The notes below the pieces were generated by a model, which was given only the letters and a program-made list of their open reading frames with translations, was not told the DNA's origin and did not search any database. 64,000 nt of DNA from Marsupella aquatica (taxonomy: Eukaryota; Plantae; Marchantiophyta), in NCBI GenBank assembly GCA_973895155.1, contig OZ316893.1:9487839-9551838 (forward strand). Reading direction: 5' to 3'. Shown here piece after piece: positions 3,101 to 64,000 of the stretch. Numbering within the stretch: position 1 is the stretch's first letter; every line of letters starts with the position of its first letter. A program made the translations under genes and the position numbers.

Positions 3101-4178
3101 CTCGCCTTGAGCCTCCTTAAGAGCAAATTTCTTCTTAAGGTCCTCGGTCTGCGATGCAATGTTAGCAGCGGATAGAATATAAGTGCAGGCATCCAGCGTC
3201 ATGTTCTTCGAATACCATGTCGCCTTTCGCACATTGGCCATCTTCTGCTGGAAAAGTTTGTAATTCTCAGCGTCGATGATATCTTTGTAAACGGATAAGT
3301 CATTGTTCAGAATCTTTTGGATGCGTTCAGCCTCCAAAACCCAGGAATTCTCTACATGACATTGAGTTAACCTGCCACAACATGCCTCATGTTAGCGAGA
3401 TCGCTAGCTGAAAGTGACCTGGTAAAAATGAAATTTCAGAACTATCTTATCATGAGAAGTCCCACCTGTTCAATGCGTGCATAGCCGACTCGATCTGAAC
3501 GAAAGAGTTCTTTTCACCCTTAAAGATCTTGCAGACCACTCGAGGATGGTACTTAATATCATCCGGATGTTCCTACGCCAATTGGCTCCACGAATACAAT
3601 CGGTGGTTCCCATCAAAAACACAAAACATTTTGTCCTTGAGGATCTGGAAAGAAACATGAGAATCACATTCGCGCTCAAACTCCTCGTTTTGCAACACCC
3701 AAATATCATCCCAAGTTTTGCGGATGGCATCTGTACAGATCTGGATTTCTCCATCCTCGTTTGTCATCTGAACGTAAATCGAGGCGCATCCTCGATGTAA
3801 CCCTGGGTTTTGAACTCGGACTTCAATGTGTCTATCGTAGTGGAATCCTTCTGTAGAGACCGGACAATCTGCATGTTTCTCATCCGGCACAGAGGAATTC
3901 GGGGGGGAGCCAATGCAAATCCGAACTCATTCACTCCAAACAGCAACTACATCTACCGCTGTCACCATCTTGGGCCGCCTTGGAGTCTTCAATCCCGCTG
4001 CAAGTGCTTTCTTGTTTGCTGTGGACCTAGTTTCTCTCCTTGTCGACTCCCTCGACTGAAATGATCCTCTCGAAGAAATACTCTCTGGAGACAACGATGA
4101 CTCCATGAAATAAAACCCTTCGGAGAAGAGTGCTCGAGCCCGGAGACTGCAGCGGCTGCACGCGTCAAAAACGTCCAC
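114..4178 (-). pseudogene. Multi-exon gene for a ParB/Srx-like N-terminal domain + long helical/low-complexity region + beta-class N4C/N6A DNA methyltransferase-like domain; frameshifts and stops
   Basis: ParB-like segment IVRSLQKD..TLKSEFKTQGY ... KMFCVFDGNHRLYSW (3570-3900). MTase-like motif order IV..X-I-II: AHLGFISLPTG, PMLSDDGYVAVLH (1231-1677), then RLSIGFMQAVMEFLTKPKDIVLDWTVCDRSSFSAGEFSGRFVVGVE (557-1078), resembling 'KP..L...LI...T.PGD.VLDPF.GSGTT..AA...GR..IG.E'. Putative GT-AG introns at about 3372-3464, 1930-2014 and 1064-1244. Confidence 0.6.
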
Positions 4179-4786
4179 AGAGCACCTCCTTTCGGAGAAT
4201 TAGGACAGCCGTACAAACTGCTACAAACTCCCTCTGAAGCCTTACAGAGTTACGATAGTGAATACTGACAACGATCGACAGTACGATGTAAGGAATAACA
4301 GAAATCTCCTGGCAGGGACCACTAGTTGTACCTTTTGGAAAACACGAAGAACAACCTTCACGATCGATAATCTTATCCATACAAAATACTCCAGGTGTCC
4401 CGTGTAATTTGTACCGTTGACATTATGGTACCCGTTGACTATTCCCAACGGAATCCTAACGGTAAACTTCGTCAAAAATCAGTTTGACTTTTTGGCTAGC
4501 GAGATTGCTGACATAAACTCAATGACACAGATATCCTTAAAAAGAGTTGAAATCAACGGTTTGCTTGCCATAAAACTATCAAAACCAAGCTAGCAAGATT
4601 GCTAGCATGGGAGACGTCCCTATACGTTGAGTAAAAGACAAAATAATGGTAAAATCAACGGGAACAGACTGACAATCTGTTTGGATTGTTGTTTCCGTTG
4701 GGAAAAAACCCAGTTTTGGTCCTGCAAATAGGATTCGTATGGGCGATTCAAAACATAGTCGTTGTATTTTTGTATGCTGAGAAGAG

Positions 4787-7700: not shown

Positions 7701-8586
7701 ATCCCTTTTGTTGAAGAGGTTGATGTGACATATGGGACCTGGCACTTGAGGCGGAGTGGAAAAGGGAGTGGACCTGTTTGCAATGGACGAGTGGACCAAA
7801 GTGTGTTTGGAAGAGATGAGTGCAGGAATCTCATCAAAGAAACTGGAATGAAGGCATTCCGGGCTGTAGTGGTTGGTGTTGCGATTCACGGATTGAGGTT
7901 GTCATCTCCACATCGTCAGCTTCTATACTTCTGTCTGAATAATAGGTGCCATAAAACAGGTGGCAGAAGGACTCTTGCCCAGCTTCCGGAACCACCTGAG
8001 GCATTGCAAGTCCAGCGTGGGACCAGGCTGACCCCAACAGAGATTGACTTTCTTCTTCAAAATGGGATTGAAATCAGAGGATTATCATACTCTGATCCAG
8101 CACCGATTGGGTCGTTCTCCTCTCCAAATCGTGTTGACCTCCGAATTGATGTGAACTCCTTCCCAGAAAGAGTTGACATTGGTATTCCAAACCGTAGATT
8201 CAAGACCCGGAATGCGAAAGGCGTTCGTCAACGTTTCCAGAACACCCCGGAGCTTCTCAAACGCATTCGATCTGCGACTGACGAACATATGAGAGTCATT
8301 GGAAGTCCTCGGAAACGGGTGGGGATGGCAACATCTTATCGTCACTCACGAGACAGATTCTAAAATTGCACACAAGTACTGGGTGCAAGTGTGTTGCTTT
8401 CCTTCTTGCTCATGTGATGACTTCTACAAGAGACACATGAGAGGAAGACCCTATATGTCTTGTAAACACCTCCTCTAGGTGTACTTAAACAAGTTCTCAC
8501 TGAATCTAGACAGAGACGATCTTGTGAAGCAACCAATTCTGACTGTTGTTGAAGTAAGGAGTTTGATTCCGTTGCAGTGTAGTTGA
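4787..8586 (+). pseudogene. Mutator-like DDE transposase with N-terminal GCM/WRKY-like Cys/His domain and C-terminal SWIM zinc finger (disrupted)
   Basis: CAGILECHNLGC...CEERPLCIRECPAK...HMGFHDHP (GCM/WRKY-like). VSFDVMH (D1); GFIADNAEAGWISVRRVF (D2); frameshifted HSDAFHLSQSL (C/DxxH); NCAGAESAHASM (E). PSCSCDDF...SCKHLL at 8401-8475 is a SWIM CxC..CxH motif. Stop at 6011-6013, frameshift near 6570, intron from 6853. Confidence 0.75.
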
Positions 8587-16427: not shown

Positions 16428-16768
16428 TGTTAGATATTGTTCTAGTCTTGTGACTCATGAGCTAACTACAGTTAAAACTCGGGTTAGGACTTAGCTAATG
16501 TTAGCGGTAGTGTTGTTGTGCTTATAGCCAGGGCTGATGCTAGACCCTGGTGGAACTTAGGCTCATTGTTACGGAGCTAGTTGAGAGATAGGGAGAGCTT
16601 GTGCTGTGGATGCTTGGTATGGCCGGTTGGCCTAGAGTGCAGTAAAGCTCTTGTGTGTTCCCGTGGACGTAGCCTCATGTGGAGGTGAACCACGTATCTC
16701 TCTGTGTCGACTATTGTGCGTTGGATGGTTCATGGGCTTGCCGTTACGAATGTCGTCTATGCTCAACA
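16428..16768 (+). repeat. Copia 5' LTR
   Basis: TGTTAGATATTG...ATGCTCAACA, direct repeat of 32441-32781. Confidence 0.97.
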
Positions 16769-16770
16769 AG

Positions 16771-22785: not shown

Positions 22786-25190
22786 TTGGTCACCATAGAT
22801 TCTTCTGGTGTTGTTGGGTTACCCAATGGACAACGGACCGGTTTCACTCAGAGTGGGACACAGTTTCGGCCAGCGGCATTGGTAGCAGTCAACAGTGCAG
22901 CTTCAGACAGTGATTCCGATGAGGACTCAGTCACCAGTTCTCCTCGTCATCAGGTGGTTGCACCTTTGTTGTGGGATATGGACGAGATGTACGGGGCTAC
23001 AAAGGGCCCACGATGATGCTCTGGTGCAGTTGGCACAATTGATCTGGATGACTTCATCTAGGAATTTGATACGTGGTGCGATATGTAGACCTGCGTAACG
23101 CCACGTTGTTTACCCCTTTCATGGCATGGAAGGGATTATTTCAGCATTTGGAGGGGCCACCCATGGATGACTACCATGAGTTTTGGAAGGCTCATTTGGT
23201 TGAGATTGAGGCATGGAGGCAGCATTGGTCGCCTAATTATGTGTCCATCACCTATGGCACTAGTGCGGCTGTCCAACCCATTGCCACAGCTGCTGCTTCT
23301 TCTAGCAGCACTAGCCAAAGTGGCACACCATCCACCAGTAGCACTCCAACAACATCCACCGCTACTCTTGCCGATGTGATTGTGACAGGAACTGGAGTTG
23401 CGCCAGCATTTAACCCTGTGGTGGAATTCTTTGAGGTACTGAAGCAGAACTATCAGGGTGTGAGAACGGATAAGTTGAAGGGTCTCCAGGAGTTCCAGCG
23501 CAAGACTGGAGAAAGTCTACGTGAGGGATACACTCGTATGCGCAGATTGATCACTGTCACCAAGGGAGTGACAAAGGCTCAGGCAGTCCAGTTTTGGTAT
23601 GCAATTCTGGATAGAGAATTACGACGTTAGAGTGAGAGATGTCACTCTGCTTAGGGATGCAGATCCTACATTAGCAGTTGTTTTTACCCTTTCTGAGCGC
23701 ATTGAGCTCAATATGGTGAATGAGAAGGTGGTGACTTTCGGATTTGCCAAGGAAACACCAAAGGCTGCATCTACATCCACACCACAGCCTACTGCACGAA
23801 AGAGCCAGAGGGAGAAGCCTACTGCACGAGAGTCTACCAGCCAGAGACCTGTGCCCTCTTATGCTGGACACCAGTCAGGATGTTGGACCTGTGGTGGGGA
23901 TCATGCACAGAGATATTGCCCAGATCATAGAGGATTAGGGGGAGCATCAGCGCCTGATCAGCGACAGTGCGATCACTGTGGAGCTCCTGGACACACCAAA
24001 GATAGGTGTTTCTCACTCCACCCTGAGTTACGGACTCGGGGGTCTCACTACATGGGGACCTCCCCATCACCTGCGACGTTTTTAGGCCTTGGACCCCCTA
24101 AAATGTAAGAAAAAATATTATTTTTTAACCCCTATAAAGTTGGAATATTCTTGGAATATTCCAAAAATTGGATTAAAAAGGCTCTATTGTTCTTATAAGT
24201 CTCAAAATTGAATTTAAAAGACCCTATTGTTCTTCTACAAAAATTCTTAAGTCTTCCCTTACAACCAATAAAATGACCCTATCCTTCGTCGCACGTGATA
24301 TGCCATTTTTGTGAAAGTGAAACCCCTGAGGTTACGGAGAGGAGGATCCCGTACACATGATTAGGGAAGAGGAGGAGGAGGAGGTAGAGGTGGTGGACGT
24401 GGTCGAGGCATGCCACGTGCAGGGAGACAGGGAGGTGACGCTGCCCCTGCTGTAACCATAGATCCAAAGGATGCTAAGATTGCTCATTGGAGCAACAACT
24501 AGCTGCCATGGCTAGTTCCCAAGTGAGACCTAATTCTGGTGATGGGGCATCTACATCCTATGGACCTTCCACATCCCATGGTCCTTCCACATCTTATGGA
24601 GCTGATGGAGACCTTGCCACCATGGGATTCATGTGTGGCACTGCACATATTGATGCATCAGCAATTTTGACACGTGGGGCAGCTAAAGCTCTTGAGCCTC
24701 GAGGAGCAGTAGTGGAGTTAGATCCACAAAGGGGGGATGCACGTCGGCAAACAAAGCTTCCTCAGTCTTTTACATTGTTAGAGACAGTTCAGACTGCCTC
24801 TATGAACCCGATTCGGAAAAACCCTGGCGTGGGTAAGTTGGCAGAATCAAGTAGTGATGCAACAGGGATGATAGGTACCCTACTGGGGGCGGCTACTGCC
24901 ATGGTACGCACCCCATTATTTTCAGCGACAGACATGCTGAACTTGGGAGTTGGTCCTGCAAAGGTGTTTAGATTGGCAGCTACACTCTGTGAGAACACTC
25001 TAGTGGTTGCTTCCCATGCAGAAGCAGCTTGCAGTGTTGAAGTAGTGAAGACCATGCCACCTACTACTACTAGTGAGACATGGGATGCAGCAACAGCGAG
25101 GTTGGTGGATTTACCAGCACACCCTGCATTTGAGAGGACTAGGTTTAAACCTAGTGTTGTATCATTGGATAATTGGAGTGGCATCTTCTG
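22786..25190 (+). pseudogene. Gypsy gag-like region with two CCHC zinc knuckles, interrupted by a MITE
   Basis: LQEFQRKTGESLREGYTRMRRL (retrotrans_gag-like); CWTCGGDHAQRYC and CDHCGAPGHTKDRC; Gly/Arg-rich stretch resumes after the MITE. Confidence 0.8.
24035..24330 (+). mobile_element. MITE (296 bp), copy 1, inserted in Gypsy gag
   Basis: 15-bp imperfect TIRs CTCGGGGGTCTCACT / AGTGAAACCCCTGAG. 8-bp TSD GTTACGGA at 24027-24034 and 24331-24338. Homologous to 53136-53433. Confidence 0.93.
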
Positions 25191-25560
25191 ATTAGTTGGG
25201 CCTTTTGGAGCAGTATACCAGCCAGAGAGGGTGTTACTAGATACTGGTGCTCAGCCCTTGATGTTGGGAAAGTTTGCCATACGTGGATTGGGATTACGTC
25301 CAGAGGATTTAGAGGATTGTCCCTTTCCCATTCAGACTTCATTGGGGGGACCTACACCTACACAGCACATTACCATGAGACCTCTTGATTTGAGGATTCA
25401 GGAAGGTCATACCACAGATAGCTCACAGATACAGGCACGAGCTATTTTGACTAAGGCAGAGTCATATGATGTGTTGGTGGGATGTACAGTGCTTTACCCC
25501 ATGAGATTTATTCTTGATTTTGGGGAGGAATCAGTGTCATATAGACCTGATTGGCAGTCA
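25191..25560 (+). pseudogene. Gypsy aspartic protease
   Basis: VLLDTGAQP (DTG active site) ... YDVLVG. Confidence 0.8.
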
Positions 25561-25934
25561 GGAGATGCTCGATTGAGCAAATTGCTAGTGAGATTTAGTG
25601 GACTTGTGGGAGGCCCTAAATCCACACCATTGTCTTTGGCAGCATTCAGTGGTCTAATTGCTGGACTTGATGATTTGATTGAGGGTAATGCGCATGCAAC
25701 AGATGTTCCACCATTGGAGGAGTCTCATGAGGAGCACATCATGCAAGGATTACCTAATGGCAGTGTTGTGCCACCAGTGTGGGGCACTGCACAGGCCTTG
25801 CCACAGATAGCAGCACGATTGGTACATGATGCATGGCGTCATGCTTTTACACCACAGTCAGGAGCAGAACAGTCTCTTGCAGATGGACATGTGACTCTTT
25901 CACCATTGGATACCACTCCTATTGCTTGGCAGTA

Positions 25935-26900
25935 TCCACCGGAGGGTATTTGTTTGTTGGATCTTTTTGGTGGGATTAGCACTGGATTGGCTGCGGTTCT
26001 TCAGGCAGGAATTCCTGTGCGTCTTTATTTGTATGTGGAGACAGATGAGATAGCACGGAGGGTCTCATTGCAACATGTGGCTATGTTGGTGGATAGATAT
26101 CCACAGTTGCTGCCAGTGGATGTTGTTCGTGGTTATCAGCATGCACTACCTACTGATATTTCATTGTTGGGGGCGGATCATCTGCATTGTGTTGGCCCCA
26201 TTGATTTGGTGATTGCTGGTTGGCCATGTCAGGGCCAATCTAGAGCTGGCGTTGGGCATGGACTTCATGATCCACGCTCTGCATTTTTTTGGGAGATGTT
26301 ACGGGTGCTGCGTCATCTCTAGCTACATCAGACACAGTCTCCAACATACATTTTGGAGAATGTGCCATTGTTAGGTGATGATCGTAGTCGGATTGTTGCC
26401 AGTGTTCACCAGGTGAGGTCTTGGATTGGACCTGTTGTGTTATTGGATGCTGCACATGTGGGTTCTCATGCACATCGTCCACGCTTGTGGTGGACTAATT
26501 TGATCCCATGTGAGGTGTTGAAGCGCGCATTTGACAGTATTCCACGCTCACCCGCCTTAGTGGTGGATGCTATTTTGGATCCAGTGCGTCGTGCACAGGG
26601 TGTGACCCAATCTGATAGACCTCCATTGGCAATGGTCAATGCAGTTGGGCGCCCATGTTGTGCATTACCCACTCTTGTAAGCTACTCTGCTTCATATGCA
26701 TTCAGAGCAAGTGGCCCTGGACTTGTGTGGGACACAGCTCTCCAGCAGTTAGTGGAACCTACTGCTGATGAGAGAGAGCGTGCTATGGGATTTTTGACTA
26801 GCACCACTGCAGTTGCCTCTGTGTCAGAGGGTTTGCGGCGCCAGGTTCTTGGCCAAGCAATGGATCTGAATTGTTTGACTTGGATTATCAGCTTGGGAGT
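25935..26900 (+). pseudogene. DNMT3-like C5-cytosine DNA methyltransferase domain within Gypsy pol (one in-frame stop at 26320-26322)
   Basis: Motif I LLDLFGGISTG; II YVETDE; IV DLVIAGWPCQGQS (catalytic PC); VI YILENV; VIII AHRPRLWWTN; IX ERERAMGF; X RRQVLGQAMD. In frame with the protease. Confidence 0.92.
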
Positions 26901-27131
26901 AGCTGAACAGTTGCGGATGCGCCTGCTGGAATTATTGATCATTGTCCCTTGGTGAGCTTGCGGTCCACTGAGATAGTACTGACCACAGCTGGGGGCGAGC
27001 AGATAGTCCATGGACCTATGGCAGGATTGGCCAAGGCTGGACAGATTGTTGAGCAGGAAGGGACTGCTCAATCTACTGCTAAATAGCAATCATCGGCTAT
27101 CTCTTCTACCCTACAAAGAGATATTAGGGAT

Positions 27132-32440: not shown

Positions 32441-32781
32441 TGTTAGATATTGATCTAGTCTTGTGACTCATGAGCTAACTACAGTTAGGCTAACTTGGGT
32501 TAGGACTTAGCTAATGTTAGCGGTAGTGCTATTGTGCTTATAGCCATGGCTGATGCCAGACCCTGGTGGAACTTAGGCTCATTGTTACGGAGCTAGTTGA
32601 GAGATAGGGAGAGCTTGTGCTGTGGATGGGTATGGCCGATCGGCCTAGAGTGCAGTAAAGCTCTTGTGTGTTCCCGTGGACGTAGCCTCATGTGGAGGTG
32701 AACCATGTATCTCTCTGTGTCGACTATTGTACCTTGGATGGTTCATGGGCTTGCCGTTACGAATGTCGTCTATGCTCAACA
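32441..32781 (+). repeat. Copia 3' LTR
   Basis: Preceded by PPT CAAGGGGGAGTT, followed by TSD AAAGC. Confidence 0.97.
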
Positions 32782-33158
32782 AAAGCAAGGCTCTGACCAT
32801 GAATTAAGGATAGTCAAGGGGTGAGGATAATCAAGACTCAAGACCAGGTTTGTTGGGTAGAAGAAAAATCAACCAACTAATCCTTGTTATGGCTTGCTCC
32901 TCACACCACCCTTATTATCTCCTCCCCTGAGTTTTGGGGAATCCAATGGCCATGGGCAAATGTCACCACCTAGTTACACTTGGAGAATTGTGAATATTGA
33001 GAGACAATGGGCAAAGGGCGCAGGCACGGGCAACAAGGTACCAGAGGCTCATAATGAACCTTGAAGTTGTCTTTTGTTTTGAATCAATGCCCTAAAAATA
33101 AGCTGGGATATATTTTCCCCCAAAATGAGAGCTTGAGCACAAGTTTTGAGAGGCTATC

Positions 33159-51149: not shown

Positions 51150-53135
51150 CTTCTGCCCAAACACACTCAAACTATTCCTTACGCCCGCTGCAAATCCTAA
51201 ACTCCAAACCTGGACAATGACAAAAATGGTTACTTTCCTAGGGAAGAGCACAACTCGTAAAAAAAGGAAACATTTCTTTCTGCGCACCTGCATACTGGCT
51301 GTTGAAAAAATGGCATTTGTGTGCAACTAAAAATACTATTCGGCTAATTTGTGCCAGAAACAACCAGTTGTCTCCACATCGCACGAAAGGCATCTATTCT
51401 AACTATTATGGATCCAATCACGTTCCGATAGGTATTTTCCAGAGTGAGATGGTTTTGATTGCTGAGATAATTCAAATCACATCATGTCAAACCCGACATT
51501 GATAGCTCCGACTCTGCCCACGCAGTCACAACCTCAAACCCTAAGCCCCCGAGATTCAGTACACAACTGTCGAACTAAGGGGATTCCAGTCCTAAATTCG
51601 ACCCTACAGATCCGGGGGCTGGACCCCTTGACTTCACTGCAAGTCCACGCCCACAACCAATCCCAGATCACAGCCAGCAGCTCGCATTCCAACGGATGTT
51701 GAGGGCCAGGTCAATGAACCACAGCAGAAGTCGACGGCTTCGACAAAGATTTCGCACAACATTTTGCACAACAGACGGAGGAACCGAATTCGCTGGGGAG
51801 ATGAATTACCCCTTGCTTCCACTTCCCGGCAAGTATGCAGACGGGTCCTCCACTGAGGAAGACAAGGCAGTCGAAGAGAGAAAATCCCCAACGATTTCCT
51901 CCAAAAGCAAAGCTGAAGCTCACACTGAAATACAAAATGCGAGCATACATTTACTGCTCCCGGACTTAAAGTGCGCCATCATCTGTTCTTGATTCACTAG
52001 CCATACCTTAAACAAAAACCACTCTTGCTCTGATTCTCATTTGTACTCCCCTCTTCATTGTCCCAAGTCACCCAATCTCTCCCATATCTGTCAATCAGCA
52101 CCGCCGGGCGAAATTCAGTATCGAACTCCACTCAAAACTGTCACCAGTGAACACCTCATCCCCGCATTGTCGTTCGCAGTTACTGTGCAGTCAGGTTTCG
52201 ATAACTGCACACTGAATAAGTGCAAAACCTGGCTAATTGCAAAGCGTCCCGTTCTCCCCTTTTTTCTGACCATTTGCACTTTGGCGAGGAGGGATGCATT
52301 AAACGACCATTATTAGCGTTTAGGAGCACTTGTGGGTAGAAAAGAATTCGGACGCAATAATTATAATTAACTTCTATAAGGTTGCGTTTTTTTATGCACT
52401 GGTTGCCATTCATTATAACTCTTATACTACAAGGTTGCGCCTTTTTACGCACTGGTCATCATTCAAAAATACAGTGTCAAGAAAAAAATAAATCATTAAA
52501 CAGAAGGAATAAAACCAAAATCAAATTAAATATAGAGTGAATAAAAAATACACAAATATTTTCATACAAAAAGGAATCAAATGGTTAAAACAAAAGATGT
52601 CACTAACCCTGTTGATTGCACTTTCACACAAAAAAGAATCGAATGATGGGGACAAAAGACAAAAAAATATAACTAACCCTGTTGCATGCAGTAGTATCAT
52701 AAGTCACTATTATACCATATCCTCTAGAAATGGTACTTTACAAACTCAAAAACAATGTGAACAAATCGTAACCCTCAAGTAAAAATTTGTTTTTCTGTGA
52801 CCGTAGGATCCACGCATCCATACTTCTATTAATCTCAATTATCTATGCCCAAGCTATCCACAGCCTACCCAAACCCGACCAAGATAAAAAAATTAATTTA
52901 ATATTCATTAAAAACTAATTATTAAAATTGAGACTTAATGAATTGGATATTAATCTTAAATTAAAATAAAAACTTGAGTATAAATAAAATATATCCAATA
53001 TTAATTTCTCTAAAAATTTAAAATTTAAAATATTTGTTTTCTATCACTTGGTTGTGCTTGGACTCTATGCTGCGGTGACCATTATCTTTACCTCTCCAAT
53101 TTCTATGTGCAATGCACGAGTTGTTGAACACCACC

Positions 53136-53433
53136 CTCAGGGGTTTCACTTCCACAAAAATGACATATCACGTGTGACGAAGGATATGATCATTTTATTG
53201 GTTCTAAGAGAAAACTTAAGAATTTTTGTAGAAGAAAAATAGGGTCTTTTCAATTCAATTTTAAGACTTATAAAAACACTAGGGTATTTTTAATCCAAAT
53301 TTTGGAATATTCCAAGATTATTCCAACTTTACAGGGGTTAAAAAATAAATATATTTTCTTACATTTTTAGGGGGCCTGAGACCTAAAAACGTTGCAGGTG
53401 ATGGGGAGGTCCCCATATAGTGAGACCCCCAAG
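53136..53433 (-). mobile_element. MITE (298 bp), copy 2, opposite orientation to 24035-24330
   Basis: TIRs CTCAGGGGTTTCACT / AGTGAGACCCCCAAG. 8-bp TSD ACACCACC at 53128-53135 and 53434-53441. Confidence 0.93.
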
Positions 53434-53459: not shown

Positions 53460-54620
53460 TTGCTTTGACATATTTTTCTCATCTCGCCATTTTTTCTCAC
53501 ATTGACATCTTTATCTCACATGTTCAACAATTTTTTCTCACCCTCGGCATCTTTTAGGTCCTTGATTATTGTTTCTCTCCTTGATAATTATATTTTCTCA
53601 CTTGACTCGACATCTTTCCTCACCTCCACATCTTTTCTCACCTTGACATCCTTATCTTAACACAACATCTTTCACTCACCTTGCCATGTTTTCTCTCCTT
53701 TACGTCTTCTTTTCACCTTGACTTCTTTGTCTCACCTCAACATCTCTTTTTCTCATTGACATATGTTTTCACCTTGACGTCTGATCTTTTTCTCACCTTC
53801 ACATTTTTATCTCACCACAACATCTTTCTCTCACCCTTGACATTTTTTCCTTATCTTCATATATTTTTCTCACATCGCTATCTTTCTCTCCCTGGAATTT
53901 CTTTTGCTTTACTTTTTTTTGTCAACTTGACACCTCTGTTTCTCATCAAAATCTTTGTTCACCTCGACATCTTCTCCTCGTCTCGCCACCTATTTCCCAC
54001 TTCAACTTCTATTTCTCACCTCAACTTCTATTTTCACTCAACATCTTTTTCTCACCGCATCATCTTTTGTGCAACTGTTGTCTTAACAACATCTTTGTTT
54101 ACTTAAAGACAACTTTTCTCTTAACAACATCTTGGGCAATGTGATGTCTCTTTTCTTAAGGACATCTTGGGTGCCACAACATCTTTTTCTTAACGATATC
54201 TTGGTTGACAGGATATTTTTTTTCTTAAGGACATCTTGGGTGACACATTTTTTTTTCCTAAGTACATCTTGGGTGTCATGATATCTTTTTTCTTAATGAC
54301 ATCTTGGGTGACATGATATGTTTTTTTCTTTATAATGACACATTGGGCAACATTTTTTTCTTCATGACATCTTGGGCGAGACGACATTTTCTTTCTTAAC
54401 GACATCTTGGGCAACAACACATCTTTTCTTCTTAACGGCATCTTGGAAGATACAACATAGTTTTTCTTAAATGACATCTTGGGCGACACAACATCTTTTT
54501 TTCTTAATTGCATCTTAGAGGACACGACATCTTGTTCCTTAACGACATCTTGGGCGACATGACATATTTTGTCTTAACAATATCTTGGGCTACACAACAT
54601 ATTTTTTCTTCACAACATCT
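53460..54620 (+). repeat. Degenerate tandem arrays (~20-bp CTCACCTTGACATCTTTTT, then ~36-bp CTTAACGACATCTTGGGCGACACAACATCTTTTTT units)
   Basis: Units visible by eye at 53460-54060 and 54080-54620. ORFs here are repeat artefacts. Confidence 0.8.
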
Positions 54621-54879
54621 TTGTGCAACGCACGGGTATTGAGCTAGTGGTTCAATAATAAAATTTGATGATAATGCAGCAGTTGTTATAAACCAACAGG
54701 GAAACCCAAATGGAACGCGTGAATGTTGGTCCAATTGCTAGGGAATTAAGAGAAGCCAATTTTACAAAAATAGTTTCTTTACAGTTCCTTTGACTTACAC
54801 TTATTGGTAAATATTTGTCATTGTTACATAGCATAAAACTGCAATCACTACTACATATTCGGCCTTTTTGTGAAGGCGA

Positions 54880-55395
54880 TTTAGTCGCGCTGAAATGCCC
54901 TGCGAGACACTGTCCATCGCTCGCTTTGCAATTGATAACTCATCTCAATTAGCGATGATAAAAGCATCGCAACCCCAATTTGCGATGCGCAACCCATCTC
55001 AAACGCTTGCGATTCTTAATTGATTGCAAACATGTTGCGATATCATTTCCATTCGGCCGCGTTTGCGAATCCTTTATCATCGCAAATACTCTATGATCCT
55101 AATACCCTCAACAGTTTTGCGAGTCATCGGCCATCGCTCGGATGTTTGTGAGACTCATTCTATCGCAAGTTTGCGAATATTAATGTATGGCAACTATGCA
55201 ACCAGATTAATATCGCAATGTCATGCCGAATTAGGCAACAACTCTTGCGTTGAAATAAGGTTCGCAAATTTACGATGCGGGTTAATTTGCAAGATTGCGA
55301 GGATATGGGAATGGACAAGTTGCAAATGTTATTGTATCGGAAATGTTTAGCGAAGGTAGTGCGAAGGAATTCTGTTCGCAAAATGGTTCGCAAAA
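54880..55395. repeat. CACTA subterminal repeats (TCGCAA/TTGCGA, both orientations)
   Basis: Dense ATCGCAA, TTGCGA and TTCGCAA motifs. A second cluster lies at 62636-62770. Confidence 0.8.
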
Positions 55396-55419
55396 TTAAT
55401 AAGTGACGTTGAAGGTAAT

Positions 55420-56280
55420 TTAGGAGAAAAAAGGGGATGGGCCAAGTGAGGGACGATGGAGGGACAAGGGTAGGAGGGAGAAAGAGGGAGAAAGGGGACG
55501 GTTGGGTCAAGGAAAGGAGGGAGGAAGGAGGAGGGTGCGCCAATTTAGGGAAGGCCGGTATATAGGTAAGAGGGAGAAAGGGGGTGGGATGCAATGAATC
55601 GAGGGAGGAAAGAGGGTATAGGCAAGGTAAGAGGGAGAAATTAAGGAGCCAGGGTGGGACAAGGAATGGAGGGAGGGAAAAGGAAAAGATGGAGTAAGGA
55701 AGAGGGTTAGCCAATTAATATAGGTAAGAGGGAGAAAGGGTTTGGAACAAGGAAAGGAGGGAGGGAAAAGGAAAAGAGGGAGGAAGGAGGAGGGTTGGCC
55801 AATTAATTTAGGTAAGAGGGAGAAAGGGTTTGGGACAAGGAAAGGAGGGAGGAAGGAGTTTGGTTATATATAGGTAAGAGGAAGAAAGTAAGGGTCCAGG
55901 ATGGGACAAGGAAGCGAGGGAAGGGGAAGGAGGAGGGTGGGCCATGAATTTAGGGTATAGGGATGAGGGGGTGGGACAAGGAAAGGATGGGGCAGGTTGG
56001 AGGGACAAGCTAGGGAGGGCCGGTATAGGTACTTAAGAGGGATTAAGGGGGTGGGACAAGGAAAGGAGGGAGGCCGGGACAAGTTAGGGAGCCTGGTCAG
56101 TTTAGGTAAGAGGAAGAAATGGTTTTGGACAAGGAAAGGAGCTGGAGGGAAGAAGGGAGGATGTATATAATTATATATATGAGGGAGAAACTAAGGAGCC
56201 AGGGTTTAGGTTAAGAGAGGGAAAAGGAAAGAGGGATTTAGGGGGAAAGGAGGTGTATCAAGGAAAGGAGGAAGGAGAAA
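55420..56280 (+). repeat. Purine/G-rich degenerate tandem array inside the CACTA
   Basis: Recurrent GGTAAGAGGGAGAAA..GGGACAAGGAAAGGAGGGAGG units. Confidence 0.8.
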
Positions 56281-56501
56281 GAGTACAAGTAGCATGAGTT
56301 ATCATAACACAAAGTCTAGCAAAAGGTGTGGAGGCATGGAGTTTAGGGTTTAGAGTATATCAATGACATTTCAAAATGACATGATCAATTCACAAATGCA
56401 CATGAATATATCTCCAACAAAGAAGATAGAGAAATCATCATAAATATGAATCCAATGATAGGAATTGACATCACTATATATCCGCATAATATACATATCC
56501 C

Positions 56502-59500
56502 TCATTTTTGGTCCACATCCTCATCAGGGGGGCACACAACCATAACATCAGGCCTTTCCCCGATAATAGAACGAGATCGTGGCACATACGTGATAACAAG
56601 TGACCACTCCTCTGGGTTTGGGGGGTATGGAATATAGAAACATTGCTCCACATGGCTTGGAAATGTAAATGGCTCTGATGTTTGCCAGTGCGATGGCTGG
56701 AAACTGGTGGCAGACATCTTGAGTCGTGTAAATCTACACTCATCTTGAACCACAGTGAGATTGTTACCTGCAAGGTTCACTTTGAACCACTTGCACTTGA
56801 AGATATACTCTTCAAACTTTGACTGTGCATCATATGATACCACTAGGATCTCCTCTATTTTTCCATAATGTGGCACAACATCTCAAAAAATATTTTTGTC
56901 GTGACGACTGGTGCGAGAATCTTGAGAGAATTATCCTTGAACTCCACAATCAAATGTACGACCCCTCTTCTCATCAAGGGAAGAAATCCTAAATTCAATG
57001 AAACCATATGGACATGTTACAAAAAAATAGATGCAAACATATTACAATTTTAACATAATAGACCACAAATATATTTCCAGTATACATAACTAATATCTAA
57101 TGTTTGACAAAAATATTAAGAGAGGATGGTTAGTAAGGTATGTAGGATCAATCACCTGAAATGCCTCCCTTGTGTCACTCCACATTGTTGTCCTTGATGT
57201 TACAATTCTCAAGGGACCATGCATAATGGTACGAACATCATTTGTGATGGTTGGAAAATGTAATATACTCTCTCCTCTGGCCACCATGTCATCCACCTCA
57301 ACTAGCTTTGCCTTCATATAGTCATGACACTTGGGAAAGATCCTTGGCCTCCGACTGTTACTTTTGGCCTCTTCATAGAAGTTCCTCCATTCTTCCATGA
57401 TAGTGTTGTTACTCAACATGAATGTACTCAGTTGCTTCAACTCCATGGGTGTCAACATGCGGGTTTTTGTGGCCCCTGTCAAACGATCCACCTCATCCTC
57501 CCTCTCCTCCTTCCAAGTACGGGGAGAGGTACAATCTATTGTGGCTAATATATTGCTGCAATAAAACATACTTTTTGCTACCAAATATCCTGTAGCCATG
57601 CTTCCCTCAACTCTTGCACGGTTTCGTACATATCCCTTTAAAACTGCCATGTACCGTTCCAACCAATACATCCACCGATAATGCACAGGACCCGCAATGG
57701 CAACCTCATGAACAAGGTGAACAAGTAAATGCACTTGACAATCAAAAAAGGAAGGAGGAAGGGCCTTCTCCAACTTGCACACCACCTTTGCAGCCAATAC
57801 CTTCATCCCTGGGATCTCCTCACTATAAATCTCCTTTGAGCATATCCATCTCAACAATTTTCCCAATGACCAAAAGGCATCTTTCACTTCTTCACTTGCC
57901 AAACCTATTATTGCCACGGGCAATATATGTTGCAATAGTCGGTAGTAGTCATGTGTCTTCAAATATCGTGGCCACTTATGATTGTCCTCCATCCCAAAAG
58001 CCTTTCGAAGATTGGCTCCATAACCGGTAGGAACCTCATGTCTCCTATGCGATTTCGAAACTCCCTTCGTTGTCCAACAGGAAGCACCCATGGAGCTGAT
58101 GGTCGGTGTTCCATCCCTGTGACTGGATCACTTGTCACACATCTGGATGCATCTCAAGATCCTCACAAGCCTCCCTGAAGTTAGTGTCCTTCTCTCCATA
58201 GAAAGCTTTTATCAATGCCTTTCCCACATTCCCCTCAATGTGCATGGGATCTAATAGATGGCGGATCTTCAATTCTCCCCAATAGGGCAAAGTGGTTAGA
58301 ATACTCCACCTTGTCAACCCACTACCCTCAAACTGCATGGGATCCTCAGGGCCAGCCACTCTATCAGCCAAGTCTTTCCAGTGTGCAAAAGTTGTTGGCT
58401 CAGGTACTTCACGCTCATCACCAAGCGGCATATCAATGGAGGAAAATAGAAGTGGATCAAACCTCATTGCATGTCCCATTGGGAGAAATTTTGTATGCCC
58501 AAGATAAATAATCTTGTGAAGGTGCGATGAGTACTTGGCTATATCACCAAGGCCTGGGCCACAAGTGGAGCAAGCTTTGTAGCCTTGGGTTTGCAACCCA
58601 CTGACAAAACCAAACCCTGCCAAAAAATACATCAGCAAATGATTGTGTTATGATTGACAAAGAAAAGAAAATAATACCATGCATCCTCATATGATGGAAA
58701 TTAAATAAGTAAGTACTATAGTGTAACAGTTCTTACCTGGATAGTCATGCATGGTCCACATACAAATCCCTTTCAGTTTGAAAACCCGTGATAAACCCTT
58801 TGTAATCTATCGACCATCATATGCCCATACTCCCTCCCATAATTTTTGGAGTTCTTGAACCAGTAATGCCATGTAGGTGTCCATGTTCTTCACCTTCTTT
58901 GGCCCTGGGATAATCAAAGATAACAACAAAAACCCCTTTTTCATGGACAACCATGGTGGAAGGTTGTAATTCATGAGAACCACTGGCCAAACCGATGTAG
59001 GCCTCCCCTTCCCCCCAAGTGAATGAGGGCTAACCCCATCTGAAGCCAACCCCAATCGCACATGCCGAGGGTCACGCTCAAAATCTGGCCATGTTGACTC
59101 TACATGTTTATGAGCAGGAGAGTCAACTGGTAATCGCATCACACTAGGCTCTGAACGATGCTTCTTGTGCCATACCATCAACTCGGCCAAGTCAGAACAT
59201 CTATACATGTGCAACAAGCAAGAAATAATGGGGAACCAACAAACAACTTTCCTTGGCACCTTCTGGGTTAGCATGTTTGGCTCATACCGTGGCCCATGAC
59301 ACACGGTGCATACTGTGACATGGGCTTTGTCCCCATGAAATAACATGCAATCATTCACACACGCATGAATGATATGGTAATCCATGCCAATGGATGAGAG
59401 AATCTTCTTTGTATCCTTCCAGGTTCCTGGCAACACATTCTCACTAGGTAACATCAGGTCATGACAATATTCAAATATGTCTGATAACATAGAATTGCTT

Positions 59501-59916
59501 GCCTTACGTTTAGCCTGAATGTTCAACAACCCCAATATGGCTGACAAACGACTCAACCGAGCACCCTCAAAGATAGGTGTCCGGGCATGTTCCTTAGCCT
59601 CCTTCCATTGTTGTTGCCCCTCTGGAGTATGTTGTGGTCGTGGGTCATTTTGGGGGGCAGCTCCTTCAACACTAATGTCAGGGACACCATCCCCAACATC
59701 AGCACCAAACCAATTAACCATGAAGTCATCCATGGCTCTGTCTTGGTCATGCATGACCTGGTCATCAGTTCAGGGTGTCTCTTCCTCATCAGCATCACTT
59801 GGATTATTACTTGACAAGGAATCAGCATCTGATGGTTCTCCTTCTGCTGGCATACCGATCTCTCGATATGCTGCCCTCAACCTTCGTGGTAACATTTGTT
59901 GAGAGGGTTGCGCATT
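56502..59916 (-). pseudogene. CACTA transposase (Tnp2/Transposase_21 + DUF4218 + DUF4216-like), spliced, disrupted
   Basis: IHACVNDCMLF; RHVRLGLASDGVSP; SVWPVVLMNYNLPPW; HDYP|G; LDPMHIEGNV; LKTHDYY; SFFDCQVHLLVHL; RWMYWLERYM; HYGKIEEI..FKCKWF..QCFYIPYP. Confidence 0.93.
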
Positions 59917-60155
59917 CTATGGACAATACAACCAAAAATCCTCTTCATGTATGATTTACCAGGTAAAGTAATACACACTAACAAAAAATTAAGTAACTTA
60001 AGGTAAAAACATTTGCATAAACATAAATAATACAAAGTAAATTATGTATTGCTCCAAAATGAGGCCTAAATGTAATACTCCAAAATGAGGCCAAGGCCAT
60101 ATACATAAAGGTAAGTCTCTAGTACAAAATATGGCAAAGGTGATGACATGGCAGC

Positions 60156-60986
60156 CTAATCCCACTCATAGTGTGTGAATAACTCATCGCCAACTCTAAT
60201 GGTCCTAGTAGCAAGAACTAAGCAATGGTCCTTATGATATCTCTCACCATATGGTGCCGACATTGGACCATCAGTAAAAACCCACTCACAATTGGCCCTA
60301 CGCTTGGGCCGAGTCCCCACAATACTATTTATGAAGCCAACAATATTCCCATTAGGTATGGGGTCACCGTCTATCACTCGTTGTTCACTATACCTTCTAG
60401 TGCTACCATCAAAAGTATCCATCTCTAAGGCATATGTTTTCCACTCAGGATGTTGTGCAAGGATCATGTTCTAGTGTCTTCTCTTGTAGATGGGTCCACC
60501 GTATGGGAACAAAGTAGGACCCTCTCTACCACGAACACTTGACCCACTCACATCATCCACAATGATGTCCTCACAAGCAAAAACCCCATAGCCATGTCTC
60601 TCTCCAAGCGTTGAAGCCTTCACAACCCAACGTCTACCCCAAGCCACAACCTCCTCATCAAAACCGATAAAATATGGCAAGCCAAGAGTCGAGGCATCCC
60701 ACATCTTGATGATAGAAGCACACTTGCCAGTGAACTCACATATACCCCACCTACCCTCAACAAGTGTTCTGGATGGGTCAGTGGGCGCTCGTGGCCTCGT
60801 CCTGGACTTGGGCGTGGACCGCGGTCTTCGTGTCCCACTAGGCACCTGAGGTTGTTCCTCTTCTTCCCCATGAATGGTGCTCATCCCTACACCCAAGGCT
60901 TGTGAAAGTGCATTTCCTATAGCATCTAGAACCCCTTGTGATGGGACATAGGGTGGTGGTGTCACCACTCTACGCATGTTGGATCC
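60156..60986 (-). pseudogene. SET-domain (lysine methyltransferase-like) exon inside the CACTA; one in-frame TAG at 60471-60473
   Basis: VVKASTLGERHGYGVFACEDI (motif I GxG); FPYGGPIY (YxG); IDGD..GNIVGFINS..ANCEW (RFINH..PNC-like); VLATRTIRVGDELFTHY (I..GEEL..DY-like). Confidence 0.8.
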
Positions 60987-61084
60987 CTATTTCATCCAAA
61001 AACCCACAAACAACCATAGGTGTAAACATTGGTTCACTTGTAAGAATATGAGGAGAAAATGGCAAAGCATTGTTACACACTCAC

Positions 61085-61320
61085 CATATGGGATGAAGAA
61101 GCCCCCGGAGTAAAACCTCTATGACGGCCATATCTCTCAATATGTTGAGCACATACATAAGATTTTTGAGAAATTTGGCCCACACATCTGGTGCATTGAC
61201 AGAGTTGTCGGGGTGGACCACGAGGAGGACCGGTAACCTCAGGTTCAGGAGGAGGTGGTATATCCTCATCAGAGGAGGAGAAGTCACTGCTGGAAAGTTC
61301 TGAGGAGGAAGACATATCCA
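61085..61320 (-). CDS. Exon encoding a transposase-associated (CxCxxC..H..G) zinc-binding-like domain
   Basis: LCQCTRCVGQISQKSYVCAQHIERYG; acceptor TTTTGCAG at 61321; phase-0 donor ATG|GTGAGT at 61085/61084. Confidence 0.55.
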
Positions 61321-61439
61321 CTGCAAAATTTAGGGCACAATATGATTAGCATAATATAGGCCAACTAGCAACCTTCTAGGTAACAATTGAAGCCACTCAA
61401 CCATTCCAAAAATGAGGTCCAAAAATAAGTTTCAAGTAC

Positions 61440-62160
61440 ATAGAAAATACCTGTATGGGACCCGGGCTCAGCAGTGCCTATAGGTCATGTGGCTCAAGGA
61501 AAATAAGCCGAATCTGGAAGTAGGAAGAAAAAACTACAGATATAACGTGCATTAAAACAATCATTAGCTAACTTGTTCCAAGTTGTTGGTCCCCAAATAT
61601 ATACATGTACATGCAAAAAAAGAGGTCACACATTAAAAACCCTACAAAGTATATATTTTTACCTTGCAGATGCCCGGGCTCCCACAATGCATATGCATTA
61701 ACATTACTCAAAAGTTGAGGAGGTATTGATGGCCTGCAATGTATCATGTAAGCATAGATTTTTTTCCTCATTTGTTAGGATAAACCCAAACAGAGAAAAA
61801 CTCATTCAATTCCCTCCCTTCAACAACTCTAGAAGCGAACCACTTTAGACCCTTGGAAAACCCTAAAAATTGTAAACCTCAAATGAAGTATGGAAAATAC
61901 CTCTATGGAGCTTGGGCTCAATAGTGCCTAATAGTCTTATGGTTCAAGAAACCATATCTAAGAGTAGCTAGGAGGGAAAAACTGTCTGCAACTCAAGTTG
62001 CAATGCTTCTTTTACCCCAAGTTGTGGGCCCCTAAAAATATATATGTCCGATGAAAAACAAAACCACACCAATACATACACCTTGTACCTTTCAGATGCC
62101 CAAGCTCCCACAATGCCTATGCATTTGTCAAAATCCACCAAAGTAATGGTCACCCTGCAT
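61440..62160. repeat. Diverged ~450-bp tandem duplication in the CACTA 5' region
   Basis: AAAATACCT(G/C)TATGG..GGGCTCA..AGTGCCTA and CAGATGCCC..GCTCCCACAATGC(A/C)TATGCATT occur at ~61445-61700 and ~61895-62125. Confidence 0.7.
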
Positions 62161-62867
62161 CTTATATATTATGTTCCCCTCCTATGTTAGCATAACATCC
62201 AAACACCAACCCCTTCTTACCCTCATAAGTTGCCATAAACCCTAAATGCCAAAGCCGAGGGTCTTACCCTCCTAAATTAACATAATCTGACCCTAAACCC
62301 TCACCACTTAAGCCCTCCTATGTTCCTGTAAAGAGCAAATGCCAAAACCCCTCTTACCCTCCTAAATGACCAAAACTTCACATGCCAAATCCCTCTTACC
62401 ATATGTAGTACCCAATGCCAAAGCCAAGGTCTCACCCTCCAAAATTTCCAGCAGACCCAAATCATTTATCTCTCCTAAATTGGCCATAATCTCAAACAAC
62501 AATAGGATACACCATCCTTCATATCCCTCCAACCTTAAAACCCCTCCTACATACCTTAGCTTATTAGTCTTATCACTTATACACCTGCTTAAGTATACCC
62601 CCACCTTAATTCAAAATTCAAATTCACATGTGATGGGTGCGAGAAGAACATCTTCGCAATCTCATGCGGGAACCTCGTTGCGAACAAAATAACTTCGCAA
62701 ATGGAGGCAATTGCGATGCTTTTTGCGAAAGTTTCTGCATCGCAAGTTGAGATGCGTAGAGTTTTGCAAACCCTATCTCCATTGACCCTTATGAATCCCG
62801 AGCGCGGAACGGCCGGGAGAGTGCATTTTTTCATCGGAAGAGCGAAGGTTAGGGTGCGGGCAGAGCG

Positions 62868-63877
62868 ATGGCGAGCAAAGGAGGTAGTGCTGGAGGTGAT
62901 GGGGCTTCTGGTAGCAATGCGGGTAACAGAGGGGGGGAGGACCGACTGCAGAAGATGGTGGACGAGCACTTTTCCGTGGCACAATTGAGCAAACTGGATT
63001 TGACCACACCAGCAGGGCTGGGATCATTGAGTGCAATTTTAGGCCAGGCATTGCAATTTGGCATGACTGCAGGGCATGCAGCAAGGGATGAGGAGGAGAA
63101 GAAGGCAGCAGAGCAGAAGTCTATTGAGAAGAAGAGGAAGAGAGATGAGAGGGCGAAGGCCGACGTCCTCTCCCCTCATGCCCTGGAAAAGAAGAGAAGG
63201 AAGGAAGAGCGAGACCTGATCAGGAAGCAGAGGGAAGAGCATAGAAAGAAGGAGGAGGCCAGGAAGAAGCTGCCCCTGATTACTCTAGAAGAAGAAGGAA
63301 TTCCAACAGAGCTGGCTTATCTCGGGGCAAAGAGCACAATCAGGCACATTGTGTCAACCAATTTTGCTCGAGGGGTTGAGTGGGGCAGTGTTTCGAAGGC
63401 AGAGCAGAGGCGAGTCATGAATCAAGTGAAGGATGCATTTCGAAACAGAGGAGAGATTGACTCACAGTGGCTTGCAGACAAAATTGTCAATTCTATGTCC
63501 CAAGCAAGATACCACGATAGGAAGAAGATCAGAGCTCACCTGAGAGACCTGGAGGAGTACAAAAATCTGCAGCGGCCGCTGCAATTCTCTGAGGATGTCT
63601 GGAACGCCTTCTACCAGACTGAGTGAAGCTCAAAGCAGCCAGGCTCCTCAAGGAATTCACTGAGAAGTTGGCAAAGGCCCAGAAGGCGAGAGAGGCCGGG
63701 AAGTCTGACCGTGACCTGAAAACTATGGAGCAAAAGGTGGCCCAACTCCTGCAGGTTGTGGCAGATGTTGGCGATCCGCCCAAGAAATTCCTCAAGGCAG
63801 CTGAGCGCATCCAGGAGAAGCCCAACATAACCCACAGGCTCGGTCAAGGTGGCCTCCCCGGCCTAAAGGCAGCATTC
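62868..63877 (+). pseudogene. CACTA second ORF (TnpA/Ptta-like), frameshifted, continues past an intron beyond the window
   Basis: Lys/Arg/Glu-rich coiled region; RPLQFSEDVWNAF; THRLGQGG (Transposase_24-like H..G motif); donor TTC|GTGAGT at ~63878. Confidence 0.65.
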
Positions 63878-64000
63878 GTGAGTGCCTCCCTTTCCTCCCT
63901 TCACTCCTTCCTTCTCCAATTCTTGTTTCAAGACATTTGCAATGGCACCCGATTGTTTCCCTTTTGCTAGTAAGTAGTTACTGTTGAACCTTACAAGTCG

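What the first reader, a model, noticed from the sequence alone, without database searches (positions are those of the whole stretch)
59916..61320. CACTA transposon with a SET-domain exon alternatively spliceable to the transposase's own N-terminal zinc domain
Seen: the exon with the CxCxxC..H..G transposase-associated-like domain ends at a phase-0 donor (61085). Downstream are two phase-0 acceptors: AAATAG|GGA TCC AAC ATG (60986), opening a SET-domain exon that ends in a stop at 60156, and CCATAG|AAT GCG CAA..ATG TTA (59916), opening the transposase core. Both joins are in frame. Established: En/Spm uses alternative splicing (TnpA/TnpD), and SETMAR is a host SET-mariner fusion. I do not recall SET cargo as standard in CACTAs. 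Inference: one promoter yields either the transposase or a Zn-domain-SET protein that may write histone marks on the element. The NH>NS change in the SAM-binding motif suggests a divergent or pseudo-SET.
Basis: partly seen in the sequence, partly recalled or inferred. Interest (0 to 1): 0.8.

Follow-up and report, generated by a model that had tools for sequence, protein, structure and literature searches.

The report
Bryophyte CACTA transposon with SET exon
A cut-and-paste transposon family of mosses and liverworts carries a conserved exon with the fold of a histone-methylating (SET) enzyme between the first exon and the body of its transposase gene; the two proteins likely share that first exon by alternative splicing, and the SET protein is predicted to methylate lysines, which would let the element mark its own chromatin.

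Summary
Observation confirmed. A CACTA element (left end 54846, running off the window) holds exon 1 (61315-61085, Cys3-His motif), a SET exon (60986-60156) and the transposase core (from 59916). The SET passes Pfam's cut-off and folds as a SET (pLDDT 91, Z 12). Relatives occur in Sphagnum, Calypogeia and Riccia; 19 of 25 related loci have the core right behind it. It is under purifying selection (dN/dS 0.20-0.28 across three lineages). The donor and first acceptor are kept in 12 of 12 loci, the second acceptor in 17 of 19, amid diverged spacer. No RNA run was available, so neither junction is shown; no database model shows the exon 1-core join. The NH>NS change is family-wide and does not mark a dead enzyme: active LegAS4 also lacks the His, and four of its six active-site residues are kept or nearly so. 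The missing post-SET tail leaves a pseudo-enzyme open. This copy is broken. SET cargo is known from HarbingerS, MuDR, Helitron and Plavaka; a SET as alternative exon of a land-plant CACTA was not found in print. The scan noted this family three times before on other DNA. New variant; interest 0.6.

The parts
54846..54860 (+). Left terminus of the element (CACTAC...), i.e. the 3' end relative to the transposase gene
   Evidence: the other end of relatives L003 and L004 starts at CACTAC with different flanks. The window's own right end lies beyond 64000, so TIR pairing and TSD were not testable
54846..55420 (.). Subterminal cluster of TTGCGA/TCGCAA motifs, 14 copies
   Evidence: 24 per kb against 0.24 per kb in 1-54000 and 0 in 55500-62500
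56502..56990 (-). Last transposase exon (DUF4216), two in-frame stops; 5' boundary approximate
   Evidence: PF13952 E 1.2e-8; stops at 56933 and 56885
57180..58616 (-). Middle transposase exon (Transposase_21 C-part, DUF4218), one stop and one frameshift near 58031; 3' boundary approximate
   Evidence: (table 4)
58737..59916 (-). First core exon of the TnpD-type transposase, opened by acceptor 2; conserved in-frame ATG at 59895; stops at 59772 and 58809
   Evidence: PF02992 E 1.5e-33
59917..60155 (-). AT-rich spacer (68% AT, 44% T): likely 3' UTR of the SET isoform and 3' end of the transposase isoform's first intron
   Evidence: the two roles are inferred
60156..60986 (-). SET exon: 75-residue basic linker plus 201-residue SET domain, stop TAG 60158-60156, one premature TAG at codon 172
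60987..61084 (-). Intron 1 (98 nt, GT..AG, phase 0)
   Evidence: the same join is made in database gene models P0002, P0004, P0012, P0019, P0038, P0171, P0176
61085..61315 (-). Exon 1: Ser/acidic leader plus C-x-C-x2-C-x13-H-x4-G motif, a likely zinc site
   Evidence: identical spacing in 31 stored proteins across deep branches; dN/dS 0.055-0.25; AlphaFold pLDDT 68, one helix
62600..62800 (.). Internal cluster of 6 TTGCGA/TCGCAA motifs between the two divergent genes; likely shared promoter region
   Evidence: the same internal cluster in L003 and L004
62868..64000 (+). Divergent accessory gene inside the element (no Pfam family), broken by a stop and a frameshift, runs off the window
   Evidence: present in L003, L004, L006; dN/dS 0.25; no Pfam match under E 0.05

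Best explanation
This is a broken copy of a bryophyte CACTA transposon whose transposase gene holds a conserved SET-fold exon after exon 1; exon 1 is likely spliced either to the SET exon or, skipping it, to the transposase core, and the SET product is predicted to be a lysine methyltransferase that would act on the element's own chromatin to keep it expressed. Shown: the SET fold, its place inside the element, purifying selection, and conservation of one donor and two in-frame acceptors. Inferred, with my odds: exon 1 to SET join 0.9; exon 1 to core join 0.7, with the SET exon as an alternative last exon polyadenylated in the AT-rich spacer; catalytic activity 0.6; histones of the element as the target, working against silencing, about 0.6 if active. 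Targeting would come from the shared Cys3-His domain or the basic linker, or through the divergent accessory protein binding the TTGCGA repeats; none of these routes was tested.
For: SET by Pfam above cut-off, AlphaFold pLDDT 91, Foldseek E 2.5e-7 to SET8, Z 12.2, rmsd 2.5, 123 aligned to Set1. Order exon 1, SET, core in related loci: core behind SET in 19 of 25, exon 1 before it in 12 of 25, most others cut by contig ends. Inside CACTAC termini. dN/dS of the SET part 0.20 (95% 0.12-0.30) window vs L001, 0.23 window vs L007, 0.27-0.28 L007 vs L001/L002; transposase 0.10-0.17. Donor 12 of 12, acceptor 1 12 of 12, acceptor 2 17 of 19; 61084 is the only high-scoring conserved phase-0 donor upstream of acceptor 2 (weights recalled). 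Acceptor-2 8-mer 88-100% identical against 45-49% for the spacer in the 6 loci compared. In a distant Riccia lineage 5 gene models open the core at the same place and the first Met comes 69-70 residues later, so that conserved start needs an upstream coding exon. Active-site map on LegAS4: Y159=Y113 (50 of 53), N181=N148 (47 of 53), Y220=Y201 (50 of 53), Y135=Y90 (Y 38, F 15 of 53); GxG 52 of 53. En/Spm elements make TnpA and TnpD by alternative splicing and TnpA is an anti-silencing factor.
Against: No RNA evidence for either junction. None of the 16 proteins found with exon 1 alone, and none of 31 stored proteins with the motif, joins exon 1 directly to the core; 28 of 31 continue into the SET exon. 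An in-frame ATG 21 nt after acceptor 2 is kept in 19 of 19 loci, and the 18 nt before it are no more conserved than spacer. Acceptor 2 rests on only two lineages. The protein ends 3 residues after the last Tyr, so LegAS4's sixth active-site residue (Y231, cSET) has no counterpart, and S158 maps to a variable column. No solved SET stands out as closest (top Z values tied within 1), so no target lysine can be named. Loci were found through the SET, so retention across the family is biased upward.
Confidence: 0.42

Rival explanations
1. Same gene layout, but the SET product is a pseudo-enzyme: it binds a lysine-bearing tail or a host silencing complex as reader or decoy and transfers no methyl group.
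For: No His in motif III, only 2-18 residues after the last Tyr in most members and no post-SET cysteines; Y90 is F in 15 of 53. Purifying selection does not require catalysis.
Against: GxG, N148, Y113 and Y201 are kept in 47-52 of 53 members at 24-79% identity. LegAS4 is active without the His.
Confidence: 0.22
2. Two transcription units: exon 1 serves only the SET protein, and the transposase starts at its own ATG (59895) behind a non-coding exon or an internal promoter.
For: ATG kept in 19 of 19 loci; identity jumps at the ATG rather than at the acceptor. A weak GT at 59974 is kept in 19 of 19. No database model joins exon 1 to the core. Split-gene layouts occur in four Arabidopsis EN/SPM families.
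Against: The acceptor-to-ATG stretch keeps its frame in all 19 loci; the Riccia lineage has no Met for 68 residues after the acceptor; an intron from 59974 would be only 58 nt.
Confidence: 0.13
3. The SET protein is an active methyltransferase but its substrate is a non-histone protein, such as the transposase, the divergent accessory protein or a host silencing factor.
For: No histone-reader or pre/post-SET domain; equal structural likeness to many SET classes. Non-histone substrates of SET enzymes are common (own knowledge).
Against: Best sequence-profile match is a histone H3K14 enzyme (E 1.2e-4); the basic linker (pI 11.2) resembles the NLS that lets RomA engage nucleosomes.
Confidence: 0.11
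4. The transposase is a single Zn-SET-transposase fusion made from a donor inside the SET exon, a SETMAR-like chimera.
For: Nine database gene models run from SET into the core (8 Riccia, 1 Sphagnum), and within a Riccia lineage several share a join.
Against: Joins differ between lineages and 8 of 9 drop the last SET strand, whose E196 and Y201 are kept in 53 and 50 of 53. None of the 21 phase-0 GTs in the window's SET exon both scores well and is conserved. The Riccia models come from a pipeline with ab initio predictors.
Confidence: 0.1
5. The SET exon is a captured host fragment decaying neutrally (Pack-CACTA cargo).
For: This copy and 15 of 25 loci carry stops in it; pooled dN/dS among the loci is 0.7.
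Against: The transposase decays alike within those loci (0.45-0.93); between lineages dN/dS is 0.20-0.28 with upper bounds at most 0.43; the link holds over deep branches.
Confidence: 0.02

Closest known systems
Maize Spm and Arabidopsis EN/SPM3 (TnpD + TnpA by alternative splicing); PMC13547354 and bioRxiv 10.64898/2026.08.24.746577, passages read
   Same: CACTA element, one gene giving a transposase and an accessory protein by alternative splicing; the accessory protein acts against silencing.
   Different: TnpA is a DNA-binding protein with no SET domain (0 occurrences of the term in both main texts). Here the alternative exon is a SET domain placed before the core, and a further accessory gene lies head-to-head.
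Red-algal Plavaka (EnSpm superfamily) accessory gene PAG2; bioRxiv 10.1101/2025.02.11.637652, passages read
   Same: A SET domain carried by an element of the EnSpm/CACTA superfamily, proposed to modulate transcription; untested in the passages read.
   Different: PAG2 is a separate gene fusing an adenine DNA methylase to SET in 17-19 kb Plavaka elements. Here a stand-alone SET exon sits in the transposase gene of a Transposase_21-type land-plant element. Homology of the two SETs was not tested.
HarbingerS, Phytophthora MuDR and Helitron elements with SET genes; as cited in PMC12730594 and the Bostrychia preprint, passages read; the primary papers were not seen
   Same: DNA transposons that carry a SET gene.
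   Different: Other superfamilies and hosts; separate genes as far as these passages say.
Legionella LegAS4/RomA SET domain; bioRxiv 10.64898/2026.05.29.728679, passages and section 5 read
   Same: Best profile match among solved structures (E 1.2e-4), highest identity in the fold search (28% over 130, Z 11.1), no His in motif III, four active-site residues matched.
   Different: LegAS4 has a cSET helix and ankyrin repeats and is a bacterial effector. The match is distant and tied with other SETs by fold; it shows neither origin nor H3K14 specificity.
SETMAR (recalled; its structure 3bo5 appears at Z 8.3)
   Same: SET domain and transposase in one gene.
   Different: SETMAR is a domesticated single-copy host fusion with pre- and post-SET zinc domains; here SET is cargo of a mobile multi-copy family and is predicted to be exclusive with the transposase core.

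Membership tests
CACTA / En-Spm superfamily | Transposase with Transposase_21, DUF4218, DUF4216 domains | tested here: met
   All three above Pfam cut-off
CACTA / En-Spm superfamily | Termini begin CACTA | tested here: met
   CACTAC at window 54846; the opposite end in L003 and L004 begins CACTAC exactly where their homology starts. Both ends were not seen in one copy
CACTA / En-Spm superfamily | 3-bp target site duplication and paired TIRs | not testable with these tools
   Right end beyond the window; no genome held; no locus spans both ends
CACTA / En-Spm superfamily | Subterminal repeat motifs | tested here: met
   TTGCGA/TCGCAA about 100-fold over background at the end, also in L003 and L004
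CACTA / En-Spm superfamily | Accessory ORF2 / TnpA | tested here: inconclusive
   A conserved divergent ORF is present but matches no Pfam family
Transposase-associated domain PF13963 | Profile match of exon 1 | tested here: inconclusive
   None for the window; E 0.031, below cut-off, for 1 of 21 proteins scanned. The Cys/His spacing fits my recollection of the family only
SET domain (PF00856) | Profile match and SET fold | tested here: met
Active SET lysine methyltransferase | GxG, motif III Asn, motif II aromatic and terminal Tyr | tested here: met
   52, 47, 53 (Y or F) and 50 of 53
Active SET lysine methyltransferase | Canonical NHS histidine | tested here: not met
   S in 51, N in 2 of 53; also absent from active LegAS4, so not required
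Active SET lysine methyltransferase | Post-SET / cSET segment closing the SAM pocket | tested here: not met
   3 residues after Y201 in the window's clade
Active SET lysine methyltransferase | SAM-dependent methyl transfer | not testable with these tools
   Needs an assay
Spm-type alternative splicing | Both junctions present in transcripts | not testable with these tools
   No RNA run was offered; only site conservation was tested
Plavaka PAG2 | DNA methylase fused to SET in a separate gene | tested here: not met
   Only SET found in the exon and in 53 family members

The most novel reading that the evidence does not exclude
An old bryophyte CACTA lineage has put a minimal, His-less and tail-less histone methyltransferase where flowering-plant Spm elements use TnpA: one promoter and one zinc-domain exon give either the transposase or a chromatin writer that is guided to the element and writes a mark that blocks host silencing, and the package has moved between peat mosses and liverworts.
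Probability: 0.3. Interest if true: 0.85.

Novelty: new variant of a known kind. Interest (0 to 1): 0.6.

Why it matters
Transposon-borne SET genes are listed for several superfamilies, but the passages read describe no test of what they do, and name VANDAL as the proven self-modifying system, with TnpA now added. This family is multi-copy in Sphagnum (a 360-member cluster), has copies without stops (L001), and lives in plants with laboratory models where transposons carry H3K27me3 or H3K9me2. It makes 'can a transposon write its own histone marks?' directly testable, offers a very compact SET variant, and would tie the choice between jumping and self-protection to one splice decision.

Tried and rejected
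RNA check: no RNA holder listed. Four of the 11 listed runs were laid twice; they cover introns and element ends and behave as DNA, and no joint at 61085>60986 or 61085>59916 was among those shown; this is no evidence either way. No whole genome is held, so copy number, full-length copies and TSDs were not examined. Search for longer SET fusions of 484-2000 aa: none of 601 candidates, weak evidence. Single-sequence search of solved structures: no match. Viral contigs: no match for SET or transposase; prokaryote genomes were not scanned. Exon 1 alone: Atlas hits under 0.8, uninformative; AlphaFold model low in confidence, no fold match at Z>=2 among 48161 chains. A test of whether the exon-1 domain dimerises could not be run because the queue was full, so docking of the two isoforms is untested. 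Viral SET structures match no better than cellular ones, so origin is unresolved; no tree with host, bacterial or viral SETs could be built. The tree holds 53 family rows chosen by me from about 125 hits, fragments and near-duplicates left out. An unbiased survey starting from the transposase was not possible (the one metagenome scan went to the SET). Literature: ten full-text searches listed no paper on a SET in a bryophyte CACTA; most were seen as listings only, and Repbase entries, subscription journals and preprint supplements (including the curated element table of the Bostrychia preprint) were not visible and may describe it. Rejected: neutral cargo; NH>NS as proof of a pseudo-enzyme; a host gene into which the element inserted.

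Full report
Observation. On the minus strand exon 1 runs from ATG 61315 to a phase-0 donor after 61085, a 98-nt intron ends at AAATAG|GGA (60986), an 831-nt exon ends at TAG 60158-60156, and 239 nt later CCATAG|AAT (59916) opens the transposase frame. Read with X at its one premature stop, the middle exon matches Pfam SET above the cut-off, and the downstream frames match Transposase_21, DUF4218 and DUF4216.

The element. Its left end is CACTAC at 54846, followed by 14 TTGCGA/TCGCAA motifs; six more lie at 62600-62800, between exon 1 and a divergent gene that starts at 62868 and runs off the window. In two related loci with 10 kb upstream, homology begins exactly at CACTAC, about 3.2 kb before exon 1, with different flanks. 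So divergent gene, exon 1, SET exon and core lie inside one mobile unit. This copy is dead: five stops and a frameshift in the transposase, one stop in SET, a stop and a frameshift in the divergent gene. The host is likely a bryophyte, judged from the relatives.

The family. The SET exon has 47 relatives among 826 candidates, named from Sphagnum species, Calypogeia fissa and Riccia sorocarpa, and 84 cluster representatives at E<=0.001. Of 25 metagenome loci found with it, 19 have the transposase core about 150 nt behind the stop and 12 have exon 1 in front; five end within 230 nt of the SET or inside it, and one (L018) has a truncated SET and no core in 10 kb. Twenty-four loci are Sphagnum-like and L007 is a third lineage, so these are few independent lineages. 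The careful tree puts the window with Sphagnum and Calypogeia proteins in one shallow clade (100/99) and shows two deeper Riccia lineages, both linked to a transposase core in gene models. The C-x-C-x2-C-x13-H-x4-G spacing of exon 1 is identical in 31 stored proteins across these branches.

Selection. dN/dS for the SET part is 0.20 (95% 0.12-0.30) against L001, 0.23 against L007 and 0.27-0.28 between L007 and the Sphagnum type; the transposase gives 0.10-0.17, the exon-1 motif region 0.055-0.25, the divergent gene 0.25 (Nei-Gojobori counts, bootstrap over codons). Within the Sphagnum-type loci both SET (0.7) and transposase (0.45-0.93) show decay, and 15 of 25 loci have stops in SET; the window's stop codon is TGG in 21 of 25. 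The SET is a maintained part of the element.

Splicing. The donor and acceptor 1 are kept in 12 of 12 loci and acceptor 2 in 17 of 19; nine other AGs in the spacer are kept in none. In six loci compared, the eight bases around acceptor 2 are 88-100% identical against 45-49% for the spacer. With a donor weight table from memory, 61084 is the only strong conserved phase-0 donor upstream; a conserved donor-like site at 60745 is in phase 1 and one at 59974 is weak. Database models join exon 1 to the SET exon in 28 of 31 proteins with the motif; they are predictions, not independent proof. None joins exon 1 straight to the core, though one-model-per-locus predictors would tend to miss a skipped exon (inference). 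Against the skip, an ATG seven codons after acceptor 2 is kept in 19 of 19 loci and identity rises only there. For it, a Riccia lineage opens the core at a fixed acceptor with no Met for 68 residues in 5 models. Nine models run from SET into the core, at joins that differ by lineage and in 8 cases cut off the invariant last strand; I read these as predictor artefacts but cannot exclude a fusion. No RNA was available. I put exon 1>SET at 0.9 and exon 1>core at 0.7.

The enzyme. AlphaFold gives pLDDT 91, pTM 0.86; Foldseek and VIA-align return SET proteins, the top rows tied (Set1 Z 12.2, PRC2 12.1, SET8 11.8, SET7/9 11.6, LegAS4 11.1). The family profile's best solved match is LegAS4 (E 1.2e-4), whose motif III reads N-F-S and which methylates H3K14. 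Counting along that alignment, LegAS4's Y135, S158, Y159, N181 and Y220 fall on Y90, T112, Y113, N148 and Y201, kept as Y/F 53, variable, 50, 47 and 50 of 53 rows; its Y231 has no counterpart, since the protein ends three residues after Y201. The residue at the recalled Tyr/Phe switch position is small (T, A, V, C), which would fit multiple methylation (own knowledge). So the His loss is not a sign of death; the missing tail is the open point. I put activity at 0.6. The 75-residue linker is basic (pI 11.2), as is the RomA segment that serves nuclear import and nucleosome binding.

Mechanism. Most likely one promoter region drives exon 1; splicing to the near acceptor gives a 353-residue zinc-domain-linker-SET protein with the SET exon as last exon, and splicing to the far acceptor gives the transposase. 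By analogy with TnpA and VANC the SET protein would keep cognate copies expressed by writing a lysine methyl mark. How it finds the element is untested: the shared exon-1 domain, or the divergent protein on the TTGCGA clusters, are candidates. Joint confidence 0.42. Rivals: pseudo-enzyme 0.22, separate transposase start 0.13, non-histone substrate 0.11, SET-transposase fusion 0.10, neutral cargo 0.02.

Known and new. Alternative splicing of transposase and accessory factor is standard for Spm (PMC13547354, bioRxiv 10.64898/2026.08.24.746577; passages). SET cargo is reported for HarbingerS, Phytophthora MuDR (PMC12730594; passages), Helitrons and red-algal Plavaka PAG2 (bioRxiv 10.1101/2025.02.11.637652; passages). 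CACTA defining features were taken from PMC4158355 (passages). PMC12477816, PMC11982613, PMC11735767 and bioRxiv 10.1101/2022.10.24.513474 were read in passages and do not describe this family there. Ten searches listed no paper on a SET in a bryophyte CACTA; Repbase and preprint supplements were not visible. The scan's own notes hold three earlier reports of this family on other DNA, one from the same genome with the same reading; I had reached my reading before seeing them and do not count them as support. Verdict: new variant of a known kind, interest 0.6.

Noticed in passing
window 25192-26955 (+): A Ty3/gypsy-like pol region carries a C5 cytosine DNA methylase-like segment between the protease and the reverse transcriptase (Pfam DNA_methylase E 2.1e-6, above cut-off): a second element in this window with an epigenetic enzyme.
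   Followed up: partly
window 62868-64000 (+); L003, L004, L006: Divergent accessory gene inside the CACTA, under purifying selection (dN/dS 0.25), no Pfam family; a candidate binder of the TTGCGA repeats.
   Followed up: partly
window 56502-61315 against L001 and L007; P0002, P0004: The clade with the window, Sphagnum and Calypogeia is shallow (paths 0.32-0.34; dS 0.4-1.2), little for a moss-liverwort split: possible horizontal transfer, not tested against host genes.
   Followed up: partly
window 16428-16769 and 32441-32782: A 96-98% identical direct repeat pair about 16 kb apart, likely the LTRs of a copia element with the gypsy element nested inside.
   Followed up: no
window 4781-8363 (+) and 557-3391 (-): Long open frames with no Pfam match, likely remnants of another DNA transposon and its accessory genes.
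   Followed up: no
window 53500-54640: Array of about 35-bp repeats (ACATCTTGGG core) just outside the CACTA's left end, probably the end of another element.
   Followed up: no
Atlas look-up of P0010: The second-best feature match is a SET cluster mostly from Basidiomycota (score 0.96): a lead for a fungal relative, possibly also transposon-borne.
   Followed up: no
window 24035-24331 and 53135-53433: Two inverted copies of a roughly 300-bp repeat, about 90% alike, 29 kb apart.
   Followed up: no
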